From: Rickettsiales bacterium
GTDB lineage: Bacteria; Pseudomonadota; Alphaproteobacteria; Rickettsiales; SXRF01
DNA length: 64,000 nt
Direction of reading: 5' to 3'
NCBI GenBank assembly: GCA_947459535.1
Contig: CANHDY010000001.1
Coordinates: forward strand, 4,653-68,652
Under the pieces are notes generated by a model. That model made no database searches. It worked only from the letters and a program-made list of their open reading frames with translations, and was not told the origin of the DNA. Made by a program: the position numbers and the translations under genes. This document shows, piece after piece, positions 17,660 to 46,502 of this stretch (position 1 is the stretch's first letter; the number at the start of each line of letters is the position of its first letter).

Positions 17660-17689
17660 CTGGATTACTTCGCTTACGCTCGTAATGAC
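17660..17689. repeat. half element CTGGAT...AATGAC
   Basis: ctggattacttcgcttacgctcgtaatgac. Confidence 0.6.
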
Positions 17690-18924
17690 GATAGTATTTC
17701 CTTCACCAGCCTCTCAGCCACTTGGGTTTTACTCTTCTTCGGCCATGGGTGCTGGCCATCTTTGGAAATGAATATCACCCGATTGTCATCATCACCAAAC
17801 ACTTTACCGCCGGAAACATCGTTGGCAAGCACCCAATCAGCGCCCTTGGCGTGATATTTCTTAGCCGCATGGCTTGCAAGCTTCTCGGTTTCTGCCGCAA
17901 AACCAACCACCAGGCGCGGGCGCTTCGTTTTGTGCTGCGCCACGCTTTTTAAAATATCCGGGTTTTCCTCAAGCTCCAGCGCCGGTTTTTTCCCCGTCTG
18001 TTTTTTGATTTTCTGCGCGGCTGGTTTCACATGCCAGTCCCCCACTGCGGCGGCAAACACCGCCACATCCACCGGAAGCAGCCTGTGCACCGCCTCATGC
18101 ATCTCGCGCGCTGTGGTCACATGCACGACCGAAACACCCGCAGGATCAGCAAGCTGCGTCGGCCCCGAAACCAGCGTCACCTTCACACCCACCTTGGCAA
18201 GCGCCGCCGCAATCGCATGCCCCTGCTTGCCGCTGGAGCGATTGGCAATATAGCGCACCGGATCAATCGGTTCATGCGTCGGGCCAGAGGTGACGAGAGC
18301 GGTGATACTCTTTGACCCCCTCTCCCTTTCAGGGAGAGGGTTGGGGTGAGGGTTATGTCTTTTACCCCCCTCACCCTGCCCTCTCCCCGCAGGGGAGAGG
18401 GTTCTAAGCACCACTTCCACAATCTCCTGCGGCTCGGCCATACGCCCGGGGCCTTCTTCGCCGCAGGCCAGCATGCCGACACCCGGCTCGATCACTTCCG
18501 CGCCGTCAGCCTTGAGCTGCGCCACGTTGCGCTGCGTGGCGGGGTGGCGCCACATCTGCGTGTTCATCGCTGGTGCTACGAGCAGTTTTTTATTGTTAGC
18601 AAGCAGCGTGGCGGTTGCCATATCATCGGCAATCCCATGCACCATCTTGGCGATAATATCGGCAGTTGCAGGTGCCACGAGCAGCAAATCCGTTTCGCGT
18701 GAGAAACGAATATGCCACATGTCCTTCTTTTCCTTGGGCGAGAATAAATCCGTGGAAACGGGATTGCCCGAAAGCTTTTCCAGTTCTTTCACATTCACAA
18801 ATTCGCTGCCGCCGCGCGTGACAATGCAGTGCACACCAATCTTCTTTTGACGCAGCAGGCTAATAAGCGCCGGCGCCTTAATCGCCGCAATCGAACCGCT
18901 GATGATGAGGGTAATGGAGGGCAT
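17674..18924 (-). CDS. coaBC: bifunctional phosphopantothenoylcysteine decarboxylase/synthetase
   Basis: 'ISGSIAAIK', 'PAMN..M', 'VTSGPTHEPIDPVRYIANRSSGKQG'. Start set at 'MPSITLII'; upstream codons are a translated repeat. Confidence 0.9.
   Translation of the reverse strand: MPSITLIISGSIAAIKAPALISLLRQKKIGVHCIVTRGGSEFVNVKELEKLSGNPVSTDLFSPKEKKDMWHIRFSRETDLLLVAPATADIIAKMVHGIADDMATATLLANNKKLLVAPAMNTQMWRHPATQRNVAQLKADGAEVIEPGVGMLACGEEGPGRMAEPQEIVEVVLRTLSPAGRGQGEGGKRHNPHPNPLPERERGSKSITALVTSGPTHEPIDPVRYIANRSSGKQGHAIAAALAKVGVKVTLVSGPTQLADPAGVSVVHVTTAREMHEAVHRLLPVDVAVFAAAVGDWHVKPAAQKIKKQTGKKPALELEENPDILKSVAQHKTKRPRLVVGFAAETEKLASHAAKKYHAKGADWVLANDVSGGKVFGDDDNRVIFISKDGQHPWPKKSKTQVAERLVKEILSSLRA
18316..18403. 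repeat. G/C-rich tripartite palindromic element, family A (CCCTCTCCC..GGGAGAGGG / GGGGTGAGGG..CCCTCACCC / CCCTCTCCCC..GGGGAGAGGG)
   Basis: Three consecutive hairpins read directly. Lies inside coaBC. Confidence 0.85.
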
Positions 18925-18942
18925 AGCTACCACATTTAAAGT

Positions 18943-18970
18943 GTCATCCCGAGCTTGTCGAGGGATCTCA
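18943..18970. repeat. GTCATCCCGAGC-type half element
   Basis: gtcatcccgagcttgtcgagggatctca. Gives the spurious 'EIPRQARDDT' N-terminal extension of the coaBC ORF. Confidence 0.6.
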
Positions 18971-19009
18971 AGATCTTTCGACTTCCCCCGCAATAAATGC
19001 CGGGTTCGC

Positions 19010-21763
19010 TCAAGATGACAACTGTTTTAGTTTATACAGTATCTCCAGCGCTTCTTTTGGCGAGAGTGTATCGGGGTTGATGCTTTCTAACTCTGCCAAA
19101 ACCGTCTCTCCTTTTGCGGGAGGTGGCTGATTGGCGGGGGTAGAAGAATAGCTAAAGAGCGGCAAGCTCGCCGGCACCTCCTGCGAATGTTCTGCCTCAA
19201 GCTGGCGCAGAATCTCGCTGGCGCGGCTTATCACCGGCTCAGGCAGCCCCGCCAGCTTCGCCACGTGAATACCGTAGGAACGATCCGCCGTGCCGCTCGT
19301 CACCTCATGCAGAAACACCAGCTCGCCCTTCCATTCCTTCACTTTCATCGTGTAGCAGGCAAGCGCTGGCAGCGTGCCCGTCAGCTGGGTCAGCTCGTGG
19401 TAGTGGGTGGCAAAAAGTGCGCGCGCTTTGGTCACATGGTGCAGATGCTCCACCACCGCCCACGCGATGGAAAGACCATCAAACGTCGCGGTGCCACGCC
19501 CAATTTCATCAAGGATAATCAGCGAGCGCGAGGTGGCCTGATTCAAAATGGTGGCGGTTTCCACCATCTCCACCATGAAGGTGGATTGCCCGCGCGCCAA
19601 ATCATCCGCCGCGCCCACGCGTGAAAACAGCTTATCCACGATGCCAACACGCGCCGATTCCGCCGGCACAAAACCGCCCATCTGCGCCATGATGGCGATC
19701 AACGCATTCTGGCGCAGGAAGGTTGATTTACCGGCCATGTTCGGGCCGGTGAGCAACCACAAATGCTTATCGGGTGCAAGGCTGGTATCATTGCCGATGA
19801 AAGGTTGCTGGCTGGTTTTGGCCAGCGCCGCCTCCACCACCGGATGACGCCCCTTTCGAATCTCAAACTCCAGCGATCCGTTGATTTCCGGGCGAACATA
19901 ACGGCGTTTGGCGGCAAGCTCAGCCAACGCCGCCACCACATCAAGATGCGCCAGCGCACGTGCGGACGCCACCACGCGCGGCGCGGCGTCAAGCACCTCA
20001 GCGACCAGCTCCGCAAAAATCTCAAGCTCCAGTTTCAGCGCCTTATCACCCGCTTCGCTGATGCTGCGCTCCAGCTCAGAAAGCTCCACGGTGGTGTAGC
20101 GCAGATTATTCGCCAGCGTCTGGCGGTGGATAAAATCCTGCGTCACCTTACTCTGGTGCGCCTGCGTAATTTCAATGTAATAACCAAGAATGTTGTTATA
20201 GCGAATCTTCAGTGTATTGATGCCGGTGGCGTCAATGTAGCGCTGCTGCAGCGCCGCGATGCGCCGCGCGCCCTCATGCTTCAGCGAGCGCAGCTCGTCG
20301 AGCGCCGCATGGTAGCCGCTGGCGATAAAATCACCGTCGCGCGCAAACAGCCCCGCCTCCGGTTTGATCGCGGACTTAAGCCGCTGGATGAGTGTTTCAT
20401 GGCCGCCCAGCTCGCCGCGCTTCTGCGCCAGCTCCTCTGGTAGTGCTGACGAGTCCTGCAGCTCCAGTGCCATGCGAATCTGCTGCGCGGCGTCCAGCGC
20501 CTGAGCAATGGAGAGTAAATCCCTTGGCCCACCGCGCGCAAGCGACAGCCGTGCCAGTGCCCGCTCCATATCTGGCGCATTCTTGAGCTGTTCGCGCACG
20601 GCGCTGCGAAGGCTGGCTTCATCTTTAAACAGCATCACCTGCTCCTGCCGGCGAAGAATCGCCTGTGGGTCGGTCAGCGGCGCGCATAGCCAGCTGGCCA
20701 GCAGCCTTGCGCCGCTGGCGGTGACGGTCTCATCCATTACCCAAAACAGGCTACCCCGGCGCTCGGCGGATAAGGTCTGCATCAGCTCAAGGTTGCGCAG
20801 GCTCGCCGCATCAATCTGCATGTGGCTGGCTGGCAGCTGACGCGTGGGTGCATCCAGACGCGGCATCGCGGTTTTCTGCGTGAGGCGCACATAATCCAGC
20901 AGCACGCCACACGCCGCCAGCTCGCCCGGCATGAAATCCCCAAACACACTCAGCGTCGCCACGGCGTAATACTCGGTCATGATGCGCGTAGCGCGCGCCG
21001 GATCAAACAGATGGGCGGGCAGCCGCGTCAGCTGGCTCTGCCACATCGGCTGCCATGCACTTTGCTCGCCGTCTGCCAGCAGAATCTCGCGCGGGGCAAT
21101 GCGCGAAAGTTCGGCGGCGATCTGCTCCGGCGCCACCATCGCCACACGAAACTCACCGGTGGTGATGTCCAGCCAGGCAAGGCTTGCCGACGCCTGCCCG
21201 CGAGCTGGCGCCACCAACGCGCATAAATACTGCGAACTGCGGCCATCAAGCAGCGTGTCTTCAGTAATCGTTCCCGGCGTCACAATACGCACCACATCGC
21301 GCGCCACCACTGCTTTGTAACCGCGTTTTTTGGCTTCTTCCGGTGTTTCCAGCTGCTCGGCAATGGCCACGCGCAGCCCGGCGCGGATCAGCTTTTCAAG
21401 GTAAGTATCATAGGCATGCACCGGCACGCCGCACATCGGAATATCCTCGCCGGCATGCTTGCCACGCTTGGTCAGCGCAATATCCAGTACCTGCGACGCC
21501 ACCGCTGCATCCTCAAAAAACAGCTCGTAAAAATCGCCCATGCGATAAAACAGCAGACAGTCCGGATGCGCCGCCTTCAGCGCCAGATATTGCGCCATGG
21601 CGGGCGTCGTTTTTTCCTCCCCCCCTTGAGGGAGGAGGTTAGGAGGGGGGGTGACAACTGTTCTGCCTGAGCGTATGTCACCCCCCACCCCGCCCTCCCC
21701 CTCAAGGGGGGAGGGAGAAATATCTTCCAAAACAACTGCTTGTTTAGCCATACCCATTGTCAC
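19010..21763 (-). CDS. mutS: DNA mismatch repair protein MutS
   Basis: 'TPAMAQYL..K....[14 protein letters not shown]', 'GPNMAGKST', 'DEIGRGT'. The N-terminus contains a repeat element, so the start is uncertain. Confidence 0.92.
21616..21716. repeat. tripartite palindromic element, family B (C7/G7 type)
   Basis: cctcccccccttgagggaggagg / gggggggtgaca..tgtcacccccc / ccctccccctcaagggggggaggg. Lies inside the mutS 5' region. Confidence 0.85.
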
Positions 21764-21831
21764 AAAAACTTAATTTTTATTTATGCCGATGGGTACTATA
21801 CTAGCAGCTATCGTCATGACAAAGGAAAAAC

Positions 21832-24914: not shown

Positions 24915-24946
24915 CCCTCTGCCTTTGGGAGAGGGTTAGGGGTGAG
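24915..24946. repeat. family A element, partial
   Basis: ccctctgcctttgggagagggttaggggtgag, located between the maeB and relE stop codons. Confidence 0.7.
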
Positions 24947-25470: not shown

Positions 25471-25572
25471 ACCTGCGTCAAGCAACAAAGATTCTCGAAA
25501 GGCATGCAGCACATTTACCGCTGCCCCGGAAGAGGAAATATTTTCTCATCCCATTGATATAATGGATAAAAT

Positions 25573-25588
25573 TGTTTCACGTGAAACA
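25573..25588. repeat. palindrome TGTTTCACGTGAAACA (copy 1)
   Basis: Perfect 16-bp palindrome with a CACGTG core. Confidence 0.9.
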
Positions 25589-25605
25589 TTTTTCTTGCCC
25601 TCAAT

Positions 25606-25689
25606 CCCCTCTCCCCTCCGAGGAGAGGGTTAGGGTGAGGGGGACAGCGGTTTAGGCCTCTCCCTTCCAGGGAGAGGGTTAGCGGAGGG
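25606..25689. repeat. two family A elements in tandem
   Basis: cccctctcccctccgaggagagggttagggtgaggggg and cctctcccttccagggagagggttagcggaggg. Confidence 0.8.
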
Positions 25690-25698
25690 TTATCTCAA

Positions 25699-25718
25699 AT
25701 TGTTTCACGTGAAACAAT
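25699..25718. repeat. palindrome ATTGTTTCACGTGAAACAAT (copy 2)
   Basis: Perfect 20-bp palindrome. Shares AAATTGTTTCACGTGAAACA with copy 1. Confidence 0.9.
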
Positions 25719-25819
25719 TTTGACAGTGAATGTCACAAATCATCAATACAATTTCACCGACTTTTCACATTCCTTGCCATCGCAGCCTGCTATAATGGGC
25801 GGTATAAAGGAGATACCCC

Positions 25820-26188
25820 ATGTCCCACCCGGCTTTTAACCAGAATTCTGAAATGTCCGCCATGCGCGAGGACTTAGCCAATCGTGCCTTTCGAATCAAA
25901 ATGGTGGGGTCTGTGCTTACCTTAGGGCTGGTGGCATTAGCGATCGTAATGCCCGGACTAGGTGTAACGGGAATGCTACTGACACTAGGCACTTCTGCGC
26001 TGACGGCATTGATCACCACTCGAGCAGCCAAACGCCTGGAAATAGACCAGGAGTTTCTGGAAAGCCGCATGCAAGGGCGCAACTGGTGGAACGGCTATAA
26101 AATGGAAATTGGCGGACAGCCCGATATCAGCATCGCCGCGCCGAGCTTGCCCAGCATTGCTGAAAAATCAGTAGGTCGTAAGCAGTAG
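25820..26188 (+). CDS. hypothetical membrane protein
   Basis: AGGAG lies 6 nt upstream of the start. Two predicted TM helices. Confidence 0.5.
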   Translation: MSHPAFNQNSEMSAMREDLANRAFRIKMVGSVLTLGLVALAIVMPGLGVTGMLLTLGTSALTALITTRAAKRLEIDQEFLESRMQGRNWWNGYKMEIGGQPDISIAAPSLPSIAEKSVGRKQ

Positions 26189-28330: not shown

Positions 28331-29248
28331 TTACAAAATAATCAGCGGCTGAAACCATAGATGATCTGCCACCAATATCGAGAATAACATAAACAGATAT
28401 AGGATCGAAAAGCCAAAGGTTTTTTTCGCCCAGCCGTGGGTGGGATCGGTGAGTACGCCATACACATGATAGAGAAAAACCGCGCCAAGCAGCAGCGCCG
28501 ACACCGCATAGAGCACCCCTGAGAAACCCAGCAGCGGCAGCGATAACGTCGTCGCAGCGAGCAGCCAGGTATACAACATCATCATGGTTTTGGTTTTAGC
28601 ATCACCGCACACCACTGGCATCATCGGCACGCCAGCCTTGGTGTAGTCTTCATTTTTATACAGCGCCAGTGCCCAGAAATGCGGCGGCGTCCAGAGAAAA
28701 ATAATAGCGAAAAGAATGATCGGATACAGCGTGACATCGCCCGTCACCGCCGCCCAGCCGATCAGCGGTGGAAACGAACCCGCCGCACCGCCGATCACGA
28801 TATTCTGCGGCGTCGAGCGCTTGAGCCACATGGTGTAGACCACCGCATAAAAGAAGATCGCAAAGGCGAGAATGCCCGCCGCCAGCCAGTTCAGTGCAAG
28901 CCCCATCAGCATAACGGACAGCGCCGCCATAAACAGACCAAGCGCCAGCGCATCATCCGGAGCGATGCGTCCCGCCGCCACTGCGCGATGCTGCGTGCGG
29001 CGCATGATCGCATCGATATCGCGGTCATACCACATGTTGATCGCCGCGCCAGCACCACTGGCCAGCGCAATGCACGCCAGCGCCATCACATATTGAAACG
29101 GATGCAGGCTACCGGGCGCCACCGCCATACCGGCGAAGCCGGTGAAGACGACCAGCGACATCACCCCCGGCTTCATCAGCGAGACATAATCGCGGATGGT
29201 GGAGGTGGTGGATAGAGGAATGGGTGAAAGCTGAGCGGATGAGTGCAT
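28331..29248 (-). CDS. ctaB: heme o synthase (protoheme IX farnesyltransferase)
   Basis: UbiA-type motifs 'NMWYDRDID' and 'LWTPPHFWALA'. Confidence 0.92.
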   Translation of the reverse strand: MHSSAQLSPIPLSTTSTIRDYVSLMKPGVMSLVVFTGFAGMAVAPGSLHPFQYVMALACIALASGAGAAINMWYDRDIDAIMRRTQHRAVAAGRIAPDDALALGLFMAALSVMLMGLALNWLAAGILAFAIFFYAVVYTMWLKRSTPQNIVIGGAAGSFPPLIGWAAVTGDVTLYPIILFAIIFLWTPPHFWALALYKNEDYTKAGVPMMPVVCGDAKTKTMMMLYTWLLAATTLSLPLLGFSGVLYAVSALLLGAVFLYHVYGVLTDPTHGWAKKTFGFSILYLFMLFSILVADHLWFQPLIIL

Positions 29249-36022: not shown

Positions 36023-36850
36023 ATGCTCACCTTCCCCAATATCGACCCCATCGCGCTTGAGCTAGGACCGCTTGCCATTCGCTGGTATTCGCTGGCTTAT
36101 ATTGCAGGGATATTGCTGGGCTGGTGGATTATCGTGCGCGAGCTGGCCGCCCGCCCGCTGGAAAACTTAAATAAAAAAGCCATCGATGACATGATCGTCT
36201 GGGCGATTATCGGCATCATGCTAGGCGGCAGGCTGGGCTACTGCCTGTTTTATAAACCATCTTACTACCTCGAAAATCCGCTGGAAATCCTTCAGCTCTG
36301 GCAGGGCGGCATGTCGTTCCATGGCGGCTTTGCCGGCTTTGTGCTCGCTTTTTATCTTTTCTGCCGCAAATACAACGTACGCTTCCTCGCGCTGATGGAT
36401 CTGATGGCCTGCGTCGCGCCGATTGGCATCGGGCTTGGCCGCCTCGCCAACTTCATCAATGGTGAACTTTATGGCCGCGTTACCGATTCACCGCTCGGCA
36501 TGATCTTCCCACACAGTGACGGCCAGCCGCGCCACCCCAGCCAGCTTTATGAGGCTTTTTCCGAAGGGCTGATTTTATTCATGATCATGATGTGCTTGCT
36601 GAAATTGTCCACACTCCGCGACCGCGCGGGAGCCTTGTCCGGCCTGTTTTGTATCGGTTACGGAACTGCCCGCATTATTTGTGAGTTTTTCCGCGAGCCG
36701 GATGCTTATCTGGGTTTCCTCTTTGCCGGTGCCACCATGGGGCAGCTGCTGAGTCTGCCGATGATTTTCATCGGTATATATCTGATATGGAAATCATCCC
36801 CCTCACCCGCCGCTTCGCGTCCTCCCTCTCCCCGTCGGGGAGAGGGTTAG
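36023..36850 (+). CDS. lgt: prolipoprotein diacylglyceryl transferase
   Basis: 'IRWYSLAYI' and 'GGMSFHGG'. The last ~17 codons and the stop codon lie inside a palindromic element. Confidence 0.9.
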   Translation: MLTFPNIDPIALELGPLAIRWYSLAYIAGILLGWWIIVRELAARPLENLNKKAIDDMIVWAIIGIMLGGRLGYCLFYKPSYYLENPLEILQLWQGGMSFHGGFAGFVLAFYLFCRKYNVRFLALMDLMACVAPIGIGLGRLANFINGELYGRVTDSPLGMIFPHSDGQPRHPSQLYEAFSEGLILFMIMMCLLKLSTLRDRAGALSGLFCIGYGTARIICEFFREPDAYLGFLFAGATMGQLLSLPMIFIGIYLIWKSSPSPAASRPPSPRRGEG

Positions 36851-36860
36851 GGTGAGGGGG
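36798..36860. repeat. family A element (nested hairpins)
   Basis: cccccctcaccc...ccctctccccgtcggggagagggttagggtgaggggg, spanning the lgt 3' end. Confidence 0.85.
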
Positions 36861-36865
36861 TAAAT

Positions 36866-37942
36866 ATGAACGATTTACTTTCCATCATCAAGGAACGCAT
36901 CGCTGAAAACGGGCCGATTCCGGTTTCGGAATATATGAGCCTGTGCCTTGCCCATCCTGAGCATGGCTATTACATGAAACGCGACCCGCTGGGCAAGGAT
37001 GGCGATTTTATTACGTCACCGGAAATCTCTCAGGTTTTTGGGGAATTGCTGGGTCTTTGGATCGCAAACCAGTGGGAAAAGCAAGGAAAGCCAAACGCCA
37101 CCCTGCTTGAAATGGGCCCCGGGCGCGGCACACTGATGAATGACGCCCTGCGCGCCACTAAAAAAATTAAGGGATTGCATGATGCGGTCTCGGTTCGTCT
37201 GCTGGAAATCAGCCCGGCGCTGAAGCAAAAACAATGGCAGCTGCTGGCGGGCAAGCACCATGATCTCGGCTGGCTGGAATCACTCGATTCACTGCCGCTA
37301 GAGCCCCTTTTTGTGGTGGCCAATGAGTTTTTTGACGCCCTGCCAATCAGGCAGTTTGTATGGCAAAATGAGAAGTGGCATGAGCGTTATGTTGGAATGG
37401 ACGGCGATCAACTTAAGTTCGTCATCGCGAGTGAGCGAAGCGAGCGTGGCGATCCAGACTGGATTGCTTCACCTTCGGCTCGCAATGACGGTGAGATTAA
37501 AGAAATTTGTGAACCAGCAACTGAAATCATTTCAAAGATCTCAAGCCATATTAAAACCTATGGCGGCGCGGCGCTCATCATTGATTACGGCTACAATGAA
37601 GGCAACGGCGACACGCTCCAGGCCATGCGTCGCCACCAGTATTTTGAAATATTTTCAAAGCCCGGTAGCGCCGACATCACCGCCCATGTCGATTTCGCCG
37701 CCCTCAAAGAAGCGGCAGAAAAAGCAGGCGCCAAAGTATTTGGCGCGACGCCGCAAGGGCGTTTCCTGATGAAGATCGGCGCCGGCCAGCGCACCCAGAA
37801 ACTCTGCGGAAGCGCCTCGCAGGAACAAAGCAGAGAGCTGATCTCGGGTCTCGATCGCCTCGCTTCCCCGGAAAAAATGGGCGAACTATTCAAAGTGCTG
37901 GCGATATTGCCGCCAGATGCCATGCATGCGGAGGGTTTTTAA
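36866..37942 (+). CDS. MidA/NDUFAF7-family SAM-dependent methyltransferase (DUF185)
   Basis: 'DFITSPEISQVFGEL', 'EMGPGRGTLM'. Carries a 69-bp palindromic element in frame. Confidence 0.8.
   Translation: MNDLLSIIKERIAENGPIPVSEYMSLCLAHPEHGYYMKRDPLGKDGDFITSPEISQVFGELLGLWIANQWEKQGKPNATLLEMGPGRGTLMNDALRATKKIKGLHDAVSVRLLEISPALKQKQWQLLAGKHHDLGWLESLDSLPLEPLFVVANEFFDALPIRQFVWQNEKWHERYVGMDGDQLKFVIASERSERGDPDWIASPSARNDGEIKEICEPATEIISKISSHIKTYGGAALIIDYGYNEGNGDTLQAMRRHQYFEIFSKPGSADITAHVDFAALKEAAEKAGAKVFGATPQGRFLMKIGAGQRTQKLCGSASQEQSRELISGLDRLASPEKMGELFKVLAILPPDAMHAEGF
37421..37489. repeat. compact composite element GTCATCGCGAG...ATCCAGaCTGGAT...CTCGCAATGAC
   Basis: 69 bp. Lies inside the midA-like CDS. 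Confidence 0.85.
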
Positions 37943-38781
37943 TGCTCTTTCCCCTCACCTCTTCCAATCTCGACTTACCACACATCCGCCACGGCTTTTT
38001 CAGCCGCAGTGGCGGCGTGAGTCAGGGTATCTACGCATCGCTGAACTGCGGCCCCGGCTCCGGCGATAATCTGGAACATGTGGGCAAAAACCGCCAGCGC
38101 GTAAGCAGCCACATGGGTGCACCGCTCATCACCTGCCATCAGGTTCACAGCAGCGAGGTGGTGACGGTTGAGATGCCATGGCAGCAAGGGCAGGCACCGC
38201 AGGCCGATGCGATGGTAACGAATCAGCCCGGCATCGCGCTGGGTATCCTGACGGCGGATTGCCTGCCGGTACTTTTTGCTGATCGCAGCCAGCGCATCAT
38301 CGGCGCGGCGCATGCCGGCTGGAAGGGTGCCTTCACCGGCGTACTGGAAAACACCATTGCCGCCATGAAAGCCCTTGGCGCCAGCGACATTGCCTGCGCC
38401 ATTGGCCCCGCCATTTCGCAGCCCTCTTATGAAGTCGGCCCGGAATTTTATGAGCGTTTCACGAAAATATACTCCCCCAGCTTGCGGGGGGAGATAGAGG
38501 GGGGTGATCATGCAACACTGCAAACTCACCCCCCCTACCCCCCCGCAAGCGGGGGGGTAATAAACAATGACCAATTCTTCATCCCCTCTTCCCGCGAAGG
38601 CCATCACCTCTTCGACCTCAAGGGCTATGCGCTGGCGCGGCTCAAAAATGCGGGCGTTGAGGCGGAACTTCTTGACCGCGATACCTGTTTTGAAGATGAT
38701 AGCTTCTTCAGCTTCCGCCGCGCCACCTTAATCGGCGAACGTGGCTATGGCAGGCAGGTTTCGGTAATATCATTAGTATAG
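37942..38781 (+). CDS. pgeF: peptidoglycan editing factor PgeF (YfiH/laccase-domain family)
   Basis: 'QVHSSEVV', 'ADAMVT', 'TADCLPV', 'HAGWKG'. Carries an ~87-bp element in frame. Confidence 0.85.
   Translation: MLFPLTSSNLDLPHIRHGFFSRSGGVSQGIYASLNCGPGSGDNLEHVGKNRQRVSSHMGAPLITCHQVHSSEVVTVEMPWQQGQAPQADAMVTNQPGIALGILTADCLPVLFADRSQRIIGAAHAGWKGAFTGVLENTIAAMKALGASDIACAIGPAISQPSYEVGPEFYERFTKIYSPSLRGEIEGGDHATLQTHPPYPPASGGVINNDQFFIPSSREGHHLFDLKGYALARLKNAGVEAELLDRDTCFEDDSFFSFRRATLIGERGYGRQVSVISLV
38472..38558. repeat. tripartite palindromic element, family B
   Basis: ctcccccagcttgcggggggag / ggggggtga..tcacccccc / acccccccgcaagcgggggggt. Lies inside pgeF. Confidence 0.85.
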
Positions 38782-42144: not shown

Positions 42145-43024
42145 GGTTTGCCTTTAGTTCCTTCGCATACCTAGCCTCAACTGCGTATTTTAGCAACAAA
42201 GTGAGCACGGCCAGTAAGGTCAGCAGCGACGCGACCGCAAACGCCGCTACGAAATTATATTCATTATACAGAATCTCCACATGCAGCGGCACAGTGTTCG
42301 TCTGCCCCTTGATATGGCCGGAAACGACTGACACTGCGCCAAACTCGCCCATCGCCCGTGCATTGCACAGCAGTACGCCGGAGAGCAGCGCCCATTTGAT
42401 ATTGGGCAGCGTCACGCTGATGAAGGTACGAAAGCCCGATGCGCCAAGCAGAATCGCCGCTTCCTCTTCTTCGCTGCCCTGCTCTTCCATCAGCGGAATC
42501 AGCTCACGCGCCACAAACGGAAAGGTGACAAAGATGGTGGCAATCACCAGGCCGGGCACCGCAAAAATAATCTGGATATCGTGTGCAGCGAGCCACTCGC
42601 CCAGCGCCGAATGCGCGCCAAACAGCAGCACATAAATCAGGCCGGAAATCACCGGCGAGACGGAAAACGGCAAATCAATGAAGGTGATGAGCAGGCGCTT
42701 GCCGGCAAATTCATATTTGGCAATCGCCCAGGAGGCGCAGAGGCCAAACACCACATTAAACGGCACCGCAATCGCCGCCACCAGCAACGTGAGCTCGATG
42801 GCCGACAGCGCATGGCGGTGGGCAAGCGCATCTGCGTAAGCCTCCCAGCCCTTTGCAAACGCTTCTGCAAAAACCACCGCCAGCGGCAACGCCACCAGCG
42901 CCAGCATGAAGCCAAGCGCGACAGCAATGAGCACCAACTTCACCCACCATGGCTCTCCTAAAATCTCCCTCTCCCTTTTAGGGAGAGGGTTGGGGTGAGG
43001 GTTATCAGTCCAAATGACGCTCAT
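42134..43024 (-). CDS. cysW: sulfate ABC transporter permease CysW
   Basis: Permease EAA-type region '[15 protein letters not shown]'. The first ~20 codons lie in a repeat element, so the start is uncertain. Confidence 0.85.
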
Positions 43025-43062
43025 AAAACCCCCCTCCTAACCTCTCCCCTTAAGGGGGGAGG
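42967..43062. repeat. family A-like tripartite element at the cysT/cysW junction
   Basis: ccctctcccttttagggagagggttggggtgaggg ... cctctccccttaaggggggagg. Confidence 0.85.
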
Positions 43063-43876
43063 AATATCTGGATTGTAACCAGTTAATGAGTAGCAGCAAC
43101 GCGAATGATGCAAGCAGCATCACGCAGGCGATGGCGGTGGCGCCTGCCACATCATATTGCTCCAGCTTCACAACAATCAGAAGCGGCACAATTTCCGACA
43201 CGCCGGGAATATTGCCCGCGATAAAAATCACCGAGCCATATTCGCCGAGCGCGCGGGCAAAGGCCATGGCAAAGCCGGTCGCGAGCGCCGGTAGCACCGA
43301 AGGCAATAACACGCGCGTAAAAAGCTGCCAGCGCGAAGCGCCAAGGCTCACCGCCGCCTCTTCCACCTCGCGGTCAATGTCTTTTAAGACCGGCTCCACC
43401 GTGCGCACGACAAACGGCAGCCCGACAAATACCAGCGCTGCAAAAATCCCCAGCGGCGTGAACGCCACCTTGATGCCAAGCTCATTAAGCGGAGCGCCGA
43501 GCCAGCCGCTGGGGCCATAAAGCGTCGCCAGCGCGATGCCAGCCACCGCCGTCGGCAGGGCAAAGGGTAAATCCACCATCGCATCTAACATTTTGCGACC
43601 GGCAAAACGGTAGCGCACCAGCACCCACGCGAGAATCAGCCCGAAACATGCGTTCACCGCCGCCGCCGCCAGCGCAAGGCCAAAGCTTATTTTATAAGCA
43701 TGCACCACGCGATCAGAGGTCACGGCTTTCATGATCTCCGGCCAGCTGAGCGTGGCTGTTTTCACAAACAGTCCGGCCAGCGGAATCACCACCACCAGCA
43801 GCAGCGCCGCCAGCGTAAACGCCATGGTGATGCCAAAGCCCGGCAGAATGGAAGGTTGTTTGAGTTTCATATACAT
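43037..43876 (-). CDS. cysT: sulfate ABC transporter permease CysT
   Basis: 'EEAAVSLGASRWQLF'. The last 8 codons and the stop codon lie in a repeat element. Confidence 0.85.
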   Translation of the reverse strand: MYMKLKQPSILPGFGITMAFTLAALLLVVVIPLAGLFVKTATLSWPEIMKAVTSDRVVHAYKISFGLALAAAAVNACFGLILAWVLVRYRFAGRKMLDAMVDLPFALPTAVAGIALATLYGPSGWLGAPLNELGIKVAFTPLGIFAALVFVGLPFVVRTVEPVLKDIDREVEEAAVSLGASRWQLFTRVLLPSVLPALATGFAMAFARALGEYGSVIFIAGNIPGVSEIVPLLIVVKLEQYDVAGATAIACVMLLASFALLLLINWLQSRYSSPLKGRG

Positions 43877-43960: not shown

Positions 43961-45769
43961 CTATGACGCAAGCGATACATCTTCGATCATCAGCTGCGCG
44001 GTGATGTTGCCGTTATAGTGGTTTTCCTTAAGGTGGCCAATCAGCGAAATCTCCTTGCCGCGTGAAGAAAGTAGGCTGTCGCCCAGCTTGGTACCCACCG
44101 CGCGAAAGGCAATGGCGTTCAGGCGGGCGTTACTCAGGCGGTCGATCAGCAGCGTGCGGATATGCTGCTCGCCCACAATCTCCGGCTTCAAATTCACGGC
44201 ATGATCCACCATCAGCCGCACCGAAGGGTTGCCCTGCCCGAACGGCTCCAGCTGTTTCAGAGTATCGATCAGCTGGGTGGTCGCGCCGCCCACCGCCACA
44301 CGCGCATCAATTCGGTAGTGACGCTTTCGCGATATGTCGCCCACTTGGCGGCGAATATGATCACCAAGGAATTGTTCCAGCTGCGGAATATATTCTTCTT
44401 TGACCGTAAAGCCAGCCGCCATGGCATGACCACCGCCCGCAACCAAAAGGCCGCTGCCCAGCGCCGCAATCACCGCCGCGCCCAGATCCACCCCGCTCAC
44501 ACTGCGCGCCGAGGCCTTGCCCACACCATCTTTCAGAGCGATCACCGCGCACGGCACATTAAAACGTTCCTTCACCCTGCCCGCGACAATGCCGATTACC
44601 CCCGGGTGCCAGCCCTCGCCGGAAAGCAGCAGCACCGGCGCATTCTGCGGCGCGCACTCAGCAAGCGCCATGGCTTCTTCCAGCACACCCGCCTCAATGG
44701 CGCGGCGCTCTTCGTTGTAGCGCTCCAGCTCAGCGGCAAGCATCGTTGCCTCTTCTTCATTCTCGCTGGTGAGAATACGCACACCAAGATCCGACTTGCC
44801 CACGCGCCCGCCAGCATTGATGCGCGGCCCCAGAATAAAACCGCAATGATAGGCCGCAAGCTGACCATCGGCGCGCGCGGTCTGCAGCAGCGTGCGAATG
44901 CCGATATTCTGCTTAGCTGCCATCACTTTCAGCCCTTGCGCGACCAGTGCGCGGTTAGCGCCGATAAGCGGCACCACATCCGCCACCGTGCCCAGCGCGA
45001 CAATATCGAGGAGTTGTTTCAGGTCAGGTAAAGGTCGTGGTTCGTGGTTCGTGGTTCGTGGTTCGTGATTTCGCAGCACTCGATTCACCGCCACACACAG
45101 GAGGAATGCCACGCCCACCGCTGCAAGGTACGTATGCGGTGAGGTTTCATCGAGCCGGTTGGGGTTCACCAGCGCAAGGCATTTAGGTTTTTTCGCCTCA
45201 CCCTGATGATGATCCACCACCACCACATCCAGCCCCGCGTCATGCGCTGCCTCCAGCGGAGCAAAGGAAAGTGTGCCGCAATCCACCGTAATGACAAGGC
45301 TGGCGCCCTGCTCTTTCAGCAAAAGCAGGCCAGCGCTATTAGGGCCATAACCCTCCTTCATACGATCCGGAATATAAACCAATGGCTCGCTGCCCAGCGC
45401 ACGCAAATAGCGCACCAGCAGCGCAGAAGACGTCGCGCCATCCACATCATAATCGCCCCAGATGGCGATGGTTTCCCCCGCCAGCACCGCCGCCGCCACA
45501 CGCTCTGCCGCCACCTCCATATCCAGCAAATGTGCTGGATCCGGCAAAGATGATTTAAGGCTGGGATTAAGGAAATCATGAACCTGCTCAGTGGTAACAC
45601 CGCGCGCTACCAGAATTCGTGAGAGTATCTCTGGTAGATCATGCGCGTGCATCACCTGCTGCACCAGATGCTCAGGGGCTTGGCTAAATTGCCATGAAGC
45701 GCCGGTCGCGGAAACGAGGTGAGAGGATGATTGGATGATTGGATGATGAAGTGAGTTTGTGCTATGCAT
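43961..45769 (-). CDS. recJ: single-stranded-DNA-specific exonuclease RecJ
   Basis: DHH motifs 'IWGDYDVDGATS', 'VVVDHH', 'GGGHAMAAG'. Contains an in-frame heptamer tract. Confidence 0.92.
   Translation of the reverse strand: MHSTNSLHHPIIQSSSHLVSATGASWQFSQAPEHLVQQVMHAHDLPEILSRILVARGVTTEQVHDFLNPSLKSSLPDPAHLLDMEVAAERVAAAVLAGETIAIWGDYDVDGATSSALLVRYLRALGSEPLVYIPDRMKEGYGPNSAGLLLLKEQGASLVITVDCGTLSFAPLEAAHDAGLDVVVVDHHQGEAKKPKCLALVNPNRLDETSPHTYLAAVGVAFLLCVAVNRVLRNHEPRTTNHEPRPLPDLKQLLDIVALGTVADVVPLIGANRALVAQGLKVMAAKQNIGIRTLLQTARADGQLAAYHCGFILGPRINAGGRVGKSDLGVRILTSENEEEATMLAAELERYNEERRAIEAGVLEEAMALAECAPQNAPVLLLSGEGWHPGVIGIVAGRVKERFNVPCAVIALKDGVGKASARSVSGVDLGAAVIAALGSGLLVAGGGHAMAAGFTVKEEYIPQLEQFLGDHIRRQVGDISRKRHYRIDARVAVGGATTQLIDTLKQLEPFGQGNPSVRLMVDHAVNLKPEIVGEQHIRTLLIDRLSNARLNAIAFRAVGTKLGDSLLSSRGKEISLIGHLKENHYNGNITAQLMIEDVSLAS
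45036..45070. repeat. direct heptamer tract (CGTGGTT)x4 + CGTGATT inside recJ
   Basis: Read directly. Translated on the minus strand as RNHEPRTTNHEPRP. Confidence 0.95.
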
Positions 45770-45817
45770 GAAATATGATTATCACCTAAACATTCAAATA
45801 TCCATCCATCCAACTGA

Positions 45818-45844
45818 CAGGATCCCCGCTTTCGCGGGGATGAC
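45818..45844. repeat. half element CAGGATCCCCGCTTTCGCGGGGATGAC
   Basis: Read directly. Its ATGAC terminus supplies the first ATG of the O-methyltransferase ORF. Confidence 0.75.
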
Positions 45845-46502
45845 AAACGTGCCCCGCGAACATATCACCCCGAACATCGACTATATCCGCAAGCTCTACG
45901 CGCCGCAAGACAGCTTGCTAGCCAGCATTGCCGACACATTGAAAAAGCTGGATATCGCGTGGCAGGTAGGCCCCGAAGAGGGCAAGCTGCTGCAGCTGCT
46001 CATTCGCCTAAGCGGCGCGCGGCGCGTGGTGGAAATCGGCACGCTTGTTGGCTATTCCACGATCTGGATGGCGCGCGCCCTGCCAGATGGCGGCCAGATT
46101 TTCACCATCGGCAAAGACCCTGAGCATAATGCCATGGCGAAACATTTTTTTGACCAGTCCGATGTGGCTGAGCGCATCACCCTGCTCGAGGGCGACGCGC
46201 ACCTGATCCTGCCGGTGCTTTCCAAACAAGCGCCTTACGATATGGTGTTTATCGATGCCGATAAAATCAGCTATCCGGATTATCTGGATTGGGCAGAGGA
46301 AAATATCCGCCCCGGCGGGCTGATTGTGGCAGATAACACGCTGCTGTTTGATGCCGCTTCGCTGGATGCACCGCCGCCCGGCATTGCCCCCAAAACATGG
46401 CAGGCCATGCGCCGCTTTAACGAACGCTTAGCCGATAAAAATAAATTCTTCGGGCTGATTATTCCGACCGCGGAAGGAATGAGCGTGGCGGTGAAAATGT
46501 GA
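45840..46502 (+). CDS. class I O-methyltransferase (caffeoyl-CoA OMT/YrrM-like)
   Basis: 'VVEIGTLVGYSTIWMA', 'FIDADK'. The start ATG lies in the GGGATGAC repeat terminus, so the start is uncertain. Confidence 0.8.
   Translation: MTNVPREHITPNIDYIRKLYAPQDSLLASIADTLKKLDIAWQVGPEEGKLLQLLIRLSGARRVVEIGTLVGYSTIWMARALPDGGQIFTIGKDPEHNAMAKHFFDQSDVAERITLLEGDAHLILPVLSKQAPYDMVFIDADKISYPDYLDWAEENIRPGGLIVADNTLLFDAASLDAPPPGIAPKTWQAMRRFNERLADKNKFFGLIIPTAEGMSVAVKM

What the first reader, a model, noticed from the sequence alone, without database searches (positions are those of the whole stretch)
21616..21716. Family-B palindromic element sits in the 5' end of mutS, either translated or supplying a new leader
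The ~100-bp element has three parts: cctccccc..gggaggagg, gggggggtgaca-N19-tgtcacccccc, and ccctcccc-ctcaa-gggggaggg. It lies between the first ATG of the ORF (21763) and the conserved '[11 protein letters not shown]...[12 protein letters not shown]' block. No ATG, GTG or TTG exists between the element and that block except the Met inside 'PAMAQY'. So either ~50 element-derived residues ('[38 protein letters not shown]') are part of MutS, or translation starts at that internal Met. In the second case the element's GGGGGAGGA, ~16 nt upstream, would act as the SD.
Basis: partly seen in the sequence, partly recalled or inferred. Interest (0 to 1): 0.6.

Follow-up and report, generated by a model that had tools for sequence, protein, structure and literature searches.

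The report
Selfish palindromic repeat translated within MutS
A ~100-bp G/C-rich palindromic repeat of the type known from E. coli as 'BoxC' sits in frame in the disordered N-terminal tail of the mismatch-repair gene mutS of an uncultured alphaproteobacterium and is most likely translated; it is one of several protein-coding palindromes in this genome, a pattern best known from Rickettsia, and not a new start site.

Summary
Window 21615-21716 is a ~100-nt nested palindrome (RNA fold -78 kcal/mol, z = -5.6). It lies between two in-frame ATGs (21757, 21751) and the conserved TPAMAQY block of mutS.

It belongs to a known repeat family, the BoxC / PIT / 'TM_ECO' triplex-motif repeats, arranged as an inverted pair. 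Seven copies occur in the 64-kb window.

Relatives settle the start question. Two sister lineages (MutS 77% identical) lack the element. Their MutS begins MASQAAVLDKELEAA-TPAMAQY, which is homologous to the window's [10 protein letters not shown]...TTPAMAQY. So the ancestral start is ATG 21751, and the element inserted into the coding sequence of the N-terminal tail.

Three close genomes (95-97% MutS identity) carry three different alleles at this site: 121, 118 and 43 nt. All are in frame, and mutS is under strong purifying selection (dN/dS about 0.04).

Sister copies are unambiguously translated inside coaBC and pgeF.

The proposed SD lies 17 nt from the internal ATG and is buried in the stem, so the 'new leader/SD' reading is disfavoured.

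Verdict: an in-frame, translated, selfish palindrome. It behaves like a Rickettsia palindromic element (RPE), but it is a BoxC-type repeat in a new host. Interest is moderate.

The parts
19010..21751 (-). mutS coding sequence as inferred here. It encodes 913 aa and starts at ATG 21751 ([10 protein letters not shown]...). Gene callers also use ATG 21757.
   Evidence: Pfam MutS_I-V all match, with MutS_I profile position 1 at T of TPAMAQY. The start Met is homologous to that of the element-free relatives L090, L093 and L095. dN/dS is 0.04 among the three close genomes.
21615..21716 (-). BoxC-type nested palindrome, an inverted pair of degenerate triplex motifs. It is inserted in frame in the N-terminal tail codons and encodes about [34 protein letters not shown].
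   Evidence: Inverted repeats and pattern matches. Fold of -78 kcal/mol. Alignment to the sister copies and to the E. coli hrpB-mrcB BoxC pair. Absent from lineages B and C. AlphaFold gives pLDDT below 50 and no secondary structure for this segment.
21749..21751 (-). Most likely mutS start codon (ATG). It is 35 nt upstream of the palindrome.
   Evidence: It aligns with the ATG of MASQAAVL (L093, L095) and MALRDQVI (L090); the window's other ATG, at 21757, aligns with non-ATG sequence in L093.
21795..21822 (-). Sigma-70-like promoter TTGTCA-16-TATAGT, with its -10 box 43 nt upstream of ATG 21751.
   Evidence: Promoter scan, 10 of 12 matches. Identical in L083 and L084. A TATAAT box sits 42 nt before the start in the element-free L093. 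This is a consensus match only, not shown to function.
21596..21598 (-).
   Evidence: Met at this position in 74 of 80 relatives that all start further upstream. It lies inside helix 1 of the model.
21616..21620 (-). SD-like GGAGG in the 3' arm of the element.
   Evidence: It is 17 nt from ATG 21598 and base-paired in the MFE and centroid structures.
17674..18924 (-). coaBC. It carries an in-frame sister element at 18314-18401, in the linker between the CoaC and CoaB domains ([32 protein letters not shown]).
   Evidence: Pfam Flavoprotein 26-198 and DFP 231-409, numbered from the TTG start of ORF 17674-18993. Exact match to the published TM_ECO pattern. Conserved in L083 and L084. Absent in L093 and L095.
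37942..38781 (+). pgeF/yfiH (Cu-oxidase_4). It carries an in-frame sister element at 38471-38557 inside the single domain.
   Evidence: One Pfam stretch spans the insert. About 29 extra residues relative to Caulobacter 1xfj. The insert is absent from L085 and L086-L088.
42962..43063 (.). Closest full-length sister copy, between cysT and cysW. The cysT stop codon lies in a hairpin loop.
   Evidence: BLAST and sequence. Exact TM_ECO pattern match.
36800..36860 (.). Sister copy overlapping the lgt stop codon. It ends 5 nt before ATG 36866.
25603..25690 (.). Intergenic sister copy. All six frames are closed.
24915..24945 (.). Degenerate solo motif just after the malic-enzyme stop codon.

Best explanation
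The element is a member of the BoxC / PIT / 'TM_ECO' family of G/C-rich palindromic repeats. Its unit is a CCCTCNCCC-loop-GGGNGAGGG hairpin followed by a third G-block, and here two units form an inverted pair.

In the ancestor of the window's species group, a copy landed inside the coding sequence of the short, non-conserved N-terminal tail of MutS. It sits between codon 11 and the E-x-x-T-P that caps helix 1 of the mismatch-binding domain.

Transcription most likely starts from the conserved sigma-70-like promoter at 21822-21795. Translation most likely starts at the ancestral ATG 21751, which has an SD-less, AT-rich leader like many genes in this window. The ribosome then reads through the palindrome.

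The palindrome adds about 35 Gly/Pro/Ser-rich residues, predicted to be disordered, ahead of an otherwise normal MutS. It is tolerated because it is in frame, stop-free and located in a flexible tail.

Shown: the family identity, the insertion into ancestral coding sequence, the preservation of frame, and purifying selection on mutS. Inferred: the actual start codon, read-through translation, and the neutrality of the insert.
For: FAMILY
- Three copies in the window match the published TM_ECO pattern exactly, against 0 expected. The pattern comes from PMC4666352.
- The coaBC copy is 78-79% identical over 85 nt to intergenic E. coli loci, including the hrpB-mrcB BoxC pair.
- The mutS copy aligns to these arm by arm.

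INSERTION INTO CODING SEQUENCE
- Lineage C (L093, L095) has MASQAAVLDKELEAA-TPAMAQY and lineage B (L090) has MALRDQVIDIPREAEAA-TPAMAQY.
- The window has [11 protein letters not shown][35 aa][10 protein letters not shown].
- The leader and the -10 box are homologous between the filled and empty versions.

FRAME KEPT
- Between identical anchors the three lineage-A alleles measure 121, 118 and 43 nt. All are 1 mod 3 and all are open in the gene's frame.
- The window and L083 alleles differ at roughly 40% of positions (my estimate by eye from the alignment, not computed), while dS of the gene is only 0.08-0.12.

GENE IS FUNCTIONAL
- dN/dS is 0.036-0.046.

TAIL AND START
- 80 of 80 relatives keep (T/S)P and have an in-frame start upstream of it.
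- The Pfam MutS_I profile starts at that T.
- In the model, helix 1 starts at the P and residues 1-36 have pLDDT below 50.

PRECEDENT IN THE SAME GENOME
- Sister copies are read through in the coaBC linker and inside the PgeF domain.
- Close relatives have an empty pgeF site.
- A relative carries an in-frame copy in recJ.

INITIATION
- The palindrome begins at +36 from ATG 21751, beyond the 13-nt ribosome footprint measured in E. coli (PMC5435973).
- Many genes in the window lack an SD.
- NCBI annotation MDX2112484.1 starts at MAKQ.
Against: - There are no expression or proteomic data; the organism is known only from metagenome assemblies.
- Only three alleles are available. Two indels both being multiples of 3 has a chance probability of about 1 in 9.
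- A second sense frame is also stop-free through all three alleles, so the absence of stops says little.
- A -78 kcal/mol hairpin sits 35 nt into the coding region, with a possible G-quadruplex (GGGGGAGGGCGGGGTGGGGGG). It could slow elongation strongly.
- The internal ATG 21598 exists and cannot be excluded as a second, minor start.
- Gene-caller and PGAP starts are predictions.
Confidence: 0.8

Rival explanations
1. New leader: after the insertion, translation shifted to the internal Met (ATG 21598). The element is then an untranslated structured 5' leader, possibly supplying GGAGGA as SD.
For: - ATG 21598 is the only canonical start between the element and the conserved block.
- A GGAGG lies upstream of it.
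- Another copy of the family does place a GAGGGGG arm 5-8 nt before a start codon (ATG 36866).
- A very stable hairpin in a coding region is costly.
Against: - The SD spacing is 17 nt, and the motif is paired in the stem.
- This start would delete the T-P that is invariant as (T/S)P in 80 of 80 relatives. T-P sits at the start of the Pfam MutS_I profile and of helix 1.
- Met at that position is part of the conserved motif in 74 of 80 relatives that start upstream.
- The three alleles keep the upstream frame.
- The ancestral promoter, leader and ATG are retained unchanged.
Confidence: 0.1
2. Initiation inside the element at GTG 21688, using the hairpin arm GGGGGAGGG as SD about 5 nt upstream. 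This would give a 30-residue tail.
For: GTG 21688 is in frame and preceded by GGAGG at canonical spacing.
Against: - Both the GTG and its SD are buried in the long stem.
- The GTG is absent from the L084 allele. In the L083 allele the corresponding stretch reads GGT GAG, so this start is not conserved among genomes in which mutS is under selection.
Confidence: 0.03
3. The insertion impairs or switches mutS. In this reading the gene is poorly expressed or phase-variable, through slippage in the C7/G7 runs or deletion between the hairpins, and the element acts as a mutator switch rather than a passenger.
For: - There are three structurally different alleles among genomes with dS of about 0.1.
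- The window allele has C6, G6, C7 and G7 runs. In the whole window, runs of 7 are found only in the mutS and pgeF copies of the element.
- BoxC/TM motifs are linked to local genomic instability in E. coli (PMC4666352).
Against: - All three observed alleles are in frame.
- mutS has dN/dS of about 0.04.
- The long runs are not conserved: L083 has none of 5 or more.
- No frameshifted allele was seen.
Confidence: 0.07

Closest known systems
BoxC / PIT element / TM_ECO intrastrand-triplex motif of E. coli and other proteobacteria (Holder et al. 2015, PMC4666352)
   Same: - Same motif (CCCTCNCCC-N3-6-GGGNGAGGG-N3-GGGNGAGGG).
- Same inverted-pair architecture of about 85-100 bp.
- 78-79% nucleotide identity between the window's coaBC copy and E. 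coli copies.
- Association with locally variable sequence.
   Different: - In E. coli MG1655 the motif is reported as always intergenic. Here three of seven copies in the window lie in frame inside genes, and two more overlap stop codons.
- The mutS copy is a degenerate variant rich in G and C runs.
- The host is an alphaproteobacterium known only from metagenomes.
Rickettsia palindromic elements (RPE; Ogata et al. 2000 and 2002, as summarised in PMC10969869 and PMC1166351)
   Same: - Short palindromic repeats that insert in frame into housekeeping genes.
- They are translated, sit in tolerant parts of the protein, and coexist with intergenic copies.
- Presence/absence polymorphism between relatives.
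   Different: - Unrelated sequence: G/C-rich BoxC type rather than the AT-rich RPE families.
- About 100 bp rather than about 100-150 bp.
- The host has about 55% G+C, flagellar genes and sulfate-transporter genes. It is not a Rickettsia.
Intragenic ERIC/RU elements of enterobacteria and QMITEs of Coxiella (PMC2759123, PMC5896051)
   Same: Small repeats that occasionally create in-frame fusions, or replace gene ends and supply stop codons.
   Different: Those are sporadic cases, mostly at gene ends or in hypothetical genes. Here, insertions inside conserved enzymes recur within one 64-kb block.

Membership tests
BoxC / PIT / TM_ECO repeat | Motif 5'-CCCTCNCCC N3-6 GGGNGAGGG N3 GGGNGAGGG-3' present in multiple copies | tested here: met
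   Three exact matches in the window (18318, 36824, 42967) against 0 expected in 100 shuffles. The pattern is taken from PMC4666352.
BoxC / PIT / TM_ECO repeat | The mutS copy itself fits the motif | tested here: inconclusive
   There is no exact match. The arms read CCCTCCCCC / GGGGGAGGG / GGGTGGGGG with a shortened second loop, a degenerate variant. The allele at the same site in L083 is canonical (CCCTCTCCC TTT GGGAGAGGG TT GGGTGAGGG) apart from a 2-nt loop. The arm-by-arm alignment holds.
BoxC / PIT / TM_ECO repeat | Two motifs in inverted configuration forming an ~85-100 bp palindrome, as at five E. coli loci | tested here: met
   Alignment with the E. coli hrpB-mrcB pair.
BoxC / PIT / TM_ECO repeat | Nucleotide similarity to E. 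coli copies | tested here: met
   78-79% identity over 80% of the coaBC copy. 3152 of 5426 E. coli genomes hold such a place.
BoxC / PIT / TM_ECO repeat | Intergenic location (as reported for E. coli MG1655) | tested here: not met
   Copies lie inside mutS, coaBC and pgeF. This is a behaviour reported for one genome, not a sequence criterion.
BoxC / PIT / TM_ECO repeat | Forms an intrastrand purine-motif DNA triplex | not testable with these tools
   Only hairpin folding could be computed. A G4-type motif is present on the sense strand.
Rickettsia palindromic elements (RPE) | Palindromic repeat inserted in frame in conserved protein-coding genes, with the ORF kept | tested here: met
   mutS, coaBC and pgeF in the window; recJ and a Methyltransf_28 gene in relatives.
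Rickettsia palindromic elements (RPE) | Insert lies where it does not disturb the fold (surface, linker or tail) | tested here: met
   MutS tail with pLDDT below 50 and no secondary structure. CoaBC interdomain linker. PgeF insert between two aligned blocks of 1xfj; its surface position was not modelled.
Rickettsia palindromic elements (RPE) | Sequence belongs to one of the RPE families, and the host is Rickettsia | not tested
   No RPE models were available. The window has 48-60% G+C, and the nearest MutS in the genome collection is 62% identical. I do not file it as an RPE.
MITE | Terminal inverted repeats plus target-site duplication | tested here: inconclusive
   The whole element is a palindrome, so TIRs are trivially present. 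The flanks are A/T-rich, but no consistent duplication was seen at the mutS or pgeF filled and empty sites.
MITE | Presence/absence polymorphism between close relatives (mobility) | tested here: met
   The pgeF copy is only in the window genome. The mutS and coaBC copies are only in lineage A. The recJ copy is only in lineage B.
REP / RAYT-associated repeats | GTAG or CGTC tag at one end of the palindrome | tested here: not met
   No such tag appears at the ends of any of the aligned copies. The tag definition is from the abstract of PMC3733652. A RAYT gene was not searched for.
   GGAGG is 17 nt from ATG 21598 and paired in the MFE and centroid structures.

The most novel reading that the evidence does not exclude
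The palindrome in the first 50 codons of mutS may be more than a passenger: it could act as a built-in instability switch for mismatch repair. Its C7/G7 runs and its directly repeated hairpins generate frequent frameshifts, deletions or conversions. Three alleles among genomes with dS of about 0.1 fit this. Such changes would lower, abolish or restore MutS, letting the population cycle between mutator and non-mutator states. Loss of MutS would itself raise the reversion rate at the runs.
Probability: 0.08. Interest if true: 0.8.

Novelty: new variant of a known kind. Interest (0 to 1): 0.5.

Why it matters
Protein-coding palindromes have been treated as a peculiarity of Rickettsia, and BoxC/triplex-motif repeats as strictly intergenic. 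Here the BoxC-type repeat, and at least two other palindrome families, sit in frame inside conserved enzymes of a free-living-looking alphaproteobacterial lineage: MutS, CoaBC, PgeF, and in relatives RecJ and a methyltransferase. Filled and empty sites occur among genomes only 3-25% diverged in MutS.

That offers a natural series for asking how such repeats move, why they are tolerated in proteins, and whether they seed new peptide segments.

For annotation, it shows that the long MutS N-terminus is real. Gly/Pro-rich 'low-complexity' inserts of this type should not be trimmed, nor used to move start codons.

The location in mutS itself, with long homopolymer runs, raises a testable link between repeat instability and mutation-rate control.

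Tried and rejected
1. The protein search with the MutS N-terminus listed nothing above 70% identity and omitted the query's own cluster. Close relatives were reached only through exact cluster look-ups and contig look-ups.
It returned only relatives of 62% identity or less. These were useful for the (T/S)P statistic but not for empty sites.
3. The one metagenome scan, with back-translated MAKQAVVLE, gave ten chance matches and no mutS. No further alleles were obtained.
4. Exact look-ups of MutS starting at GTG 21763, ATG 21751 or ATG 21598 found nothing. Only the ATG 21757 product is on record.
5. The inverted repeat TACCCAT...ATGGGTA around the start (I4) looked like an operator, but it is disrupted in L083 and L084. 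I treat it as chance.
6. I first thought all in-ORF copies were read in one identical register. Codon-level comparison shows indels between copies shift the register in the first arm, so I claim only that each uses a stop-free frame and yields similar Gly/Pro-rich peptides.
7. Rfam had no family at gathering threshold anywhere in the window.
8. No intrinsic terminator follows the element on the sense strand. The one terminator-like hit nearby lies on the antisense strand inside the coding sequence.
9. No consistent target-site duplication could be defined.
Full report
**1. What is in the sequence**

On the minus strand an ORF runs from a stop at 21772-21770 through GTG 21763, ATG 21757 and ATG 21751 to a stop at 19010. 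It carries all five MutS Pfam domains, and MutS_I profile position 1 falls on the T of TPAMAQY.

Its three inverted repeats are at the stated coordinates, and none is expected by chance. The whole of 21615-21716 also folds as one long hairpin: -78.2 kcal/mol, z = -5.6.

No canonical start lies between the element and the Met of PAMAQY. An in-frame GTG (21688) lies inside the element, and 21763 is a GTG rather than an ATG.

**2. It is a repeat, and a known one**

A search for pyrimidine/purine hairpins and BLAST of the element found related copies at these positions:
- 18314-18401
- 24915-24945
- 25603-25690
- 36800-36860
- 38471-38557
- 42962-43063

A full-text search for the arm sequences led to Holder et al. 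2015 (PMC4666352). That paper describes the E. coli 'BoxC' / PIT / 'TM_ECO' motif, CCCTCNCCC-N3-6-GGGNGAGGG-N3-GGGNGAGGG. It was found 3610 times in 262 proteobacterial genomes, often as inverted pairs, and 'always located intergenically' in MG1655.

Three window copies match that pattern exactly, against 0 expected. The coaBC copy is 78-79% identical over 85 nt to E. coli chromosomal loci such as the hrpB-mrcB spacer. The mutS copy aligns arm by arm with them, although it is a degenerate variant rich in G and C runs. Rfam has no family for it.

**3. Sister copies are translated**

- The copy at 18314-18401 lies in frame in coaBC, exactly between the Flavoprotein (26-198) and DFP (231-409) domains.
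- The copy at 38471-38557 lies in frame inside the single Cu-oxidase_4 domain of a PgeF/YfiH homologue. It adds about 29 residues between two blocks that are contiguous in Caulobacter 1xfj.
- Two further copies overlap stop codons, of lgt and of cysT.

So in this genome the family is routinely part of coding sequence.

**4. Relatives**

The ordinary homology searches gave nothing closer than 62-70% identity. Exact-sequence cluster look-ups and contig look-ups gave three groups:
- Lineage A: the window, GCA_033763775.1 (L083, L085) and GCA_964654615.1 (L084). MutS is 95-97% identical.
- Lineage B: L086-L092.
- Lineage C: L093-L096.

MutS of lineages B and C is about 77% identical to the window's.

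In lineages B and C, MutS begins MALRDQVIDIPREAEAA-TPAMAQY and MASQAAVLDKELEAA-TPAMAQY, with no element. The window has [11 protein letters not shown][element][10 protein letters not shown].

At the DNA level, the -10 box, the AT-rich leader and the ATG of lineage C line up with TATAGT (21800-21795) and ATG 21751 of the window. The window's other ATG (21757) aligns with non-ATG sequence.

The element therefore inserted into the coding sequence of the ancestral N-terminal tail, and the ancestral start is upstream of it.

**5. The frame is maintained**

Between identical anchors, the three lineage-A genomes carry three different alleles:
- 121 nt in the window.
- 118 nt in L083: a canonical BoxC-type version, with stem differences that keep the pairing.
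- 43 nt in L084: a single hairpin, as expected from a 78-nt deletion between the two outer hairpins.

All three lengths are 1 mod 3, and all three are open in the gene's frame. The rest of mutS has dN/dS of 0.036-0.046 with dS of 0.08-0.12. The gene is therefore functional, and the element changes much faster than synonymous sites.

By contrast, the coaBC copy is about 93% conserved among the same genomes.

**6. Why the internal Met is unlikely to be the start**

- (T/S)P is kept in 80 of 80 alphaproteobacterial MutS. Each of these has an in-frame start upstream of it, and Met at the PAMAQY position is part of the motif in 74 of 80.
- An AlphaFold model built on 61 sequences places the start of helix 1 at that Pro. 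Residues 1-36 have pLDDT below 50, and residues 1-49 have no secondary structure.
- The palindrome begins at +36 from ATG 21751, outside the 13-nt footprint within which hairpins block initiation in E. coli (PMC5435973).
- Many genes in the window have no recognisable SD, and neither does the element-free mutS of lineage C.
- NCBI's annotation of the L083 protein starts at MAKQAVVL.

**7. Mechanism and rivals**

My best reading, at about 0.8, is a selfish BoxC-type palindrome translated as a disordered insert of about 35 residues in the MutS tail.

The rivals are:
- Initiation at ATG 21598, with the element as leader (0.1).
- Initiation at GTG 21688 inside the element (0.03). This GTG is not conserved among the alleles.
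- An impaired or switchable mutS (0.07).

The switch idea rests on the three alleles, on the C7/G7 runs that occur in the window only in the mutS and pgeF copies of the element, and on the reported instability around BoxC motifs. Against it, all three alleles are in frame, the gene is under strong purifying selection, and the runs are not conserved.

**8. Comparison with what is known**

As a sequence family it is BoxC / PIT / TM_ECO. As a phenomenon it works like the Rickettsia palindromic elements. Of 728 RPEs in R. felis, 85 lie in ORFs (PMC1166351), and RPEs are described as unusually frequent in-frame inserts (PMC10969869). I do not file it as an RPE, because the sequences and the host differ.

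The wider pattern across the syntenic block:
- recJ carries an in-frame BoxC-type insert in lineage B only.
- One loop of a Methyltransf_28 enzyme carries three different palindrome families in three genomes.
- pgeF is filled only in the window genome.
- Lineage C has no BoxC-like cluster in the two 22-kb loci examined, L093 and L095.

Recurrent, polymorphic, protein-coding palindromes outside Rickettsia, built from a repeat thought to be intergenic, make this a new variant of a known kind. It is of moderate interest.

**9. Limits**

There are no expression data and only three alleles. The single metagenome scan for more alleles found only chance matches. The taxonomic placement of the lineage is unresolved. 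No target-site duplication or transposition mechanism could be defined.

Noticed in passing
window 25572-25589 and 25698-25716: The intergenic element copy at 25603-25690 is bracketed by two copies of the palindrome TTGTTTCACGTGAAACA. Both boxes are conserved in the relative L083, although half of the element between them has been replaced there. They could be operator sites or a duplicated target.
   Followed up: partly
window 37430-37500 (inside ORF 36866-37942): A palindrome of a different family (GTCATCGCGAG...CTCGCAATGAC) lies in frame in a Methyltransf_28 gene and encodes ASERSERGDPDWIASPSARNDG. The same protein loop carries two split BoxC half-motifs in L085 and a third palindrome family (AKAGIQ..LDPRFRGDDG) in L088. 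This looks like an insertion hot spot.
   Followed up: partly
window 36800-36866: The lgt stop codon (36848-36850) lies inside a BoxC-type copy. That copy's GAGGGGG arm sits 5-8 nt before ATG 36866 of the next gene, so here the element may really supply an SD. The copy is conserved in lineage B (L088) but replaced by another palindrome in L085.
   Followed up: partly
window 42962-43063: The copy between cysT and cysW holds the cysT stop codon (TAA) in a hairpin loop. An ATG at 43024 in its central loop opens the cysW ORF. CysT lengths vary from 276 to 282 aa among relatives.
   Followed up: no
L086 5534-7459 and L088 5534-7459 (recJ): RecJ of lineage B is 641 aa, against 602 aa in the window (43961-45769). 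The difference comes from an in-frame BoxC-type insert (NPHPNLLPRREKELTSPSPYQGEGRGEG) and a longer C-terminus. This is a second DNA-repair gene hit by the family.
   Followed up: partly
window ~18940-18970 and ~45817-45845: Short palindromes of further families occur upstream of the likely coaBC start (GAGATCCCTCGACAAGCTCGGGATGACAC) and near the 5' end of ORF 45759-46502 (CAGGATCCCCGCTTTCGCGGGGATGAC). The first makes the coaBC ORF look 23 codons longer than its homologue in L083.
   Followed up: no
window 21645-21707 and 38486-38557: All G or C runs of 7 in the 64-kb window lie in the mutS and pgeF copies of the element. The mutS sense strand also carries a four-tract G-quadruplex motif with 1-nt loops (GGGGGAGGGCGGGGTGGGGGG).
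   Followed up: partly
window 25718-26188 and 29138-29208, compared with L083: Relative to the 92-97% identical genome L083, the window has about 470 extra bases, including ORF 25820-26188, and lacks a gene of about 1 kb (364 aa) present in L083. Both indels lie in the cox gene neighbourhood.
   Followed up: no
L090 5201-6445 (coaBC of lineage B): At the same interdomain linker where lineage A has the BoxC copy, lineage B has a different insert (RAQRSNPVSGSPRPLRSLAMTG). A similar peptide, SLRAKRSN..PV, recurs at the C-terminus of the same protein.
   Followed up: no
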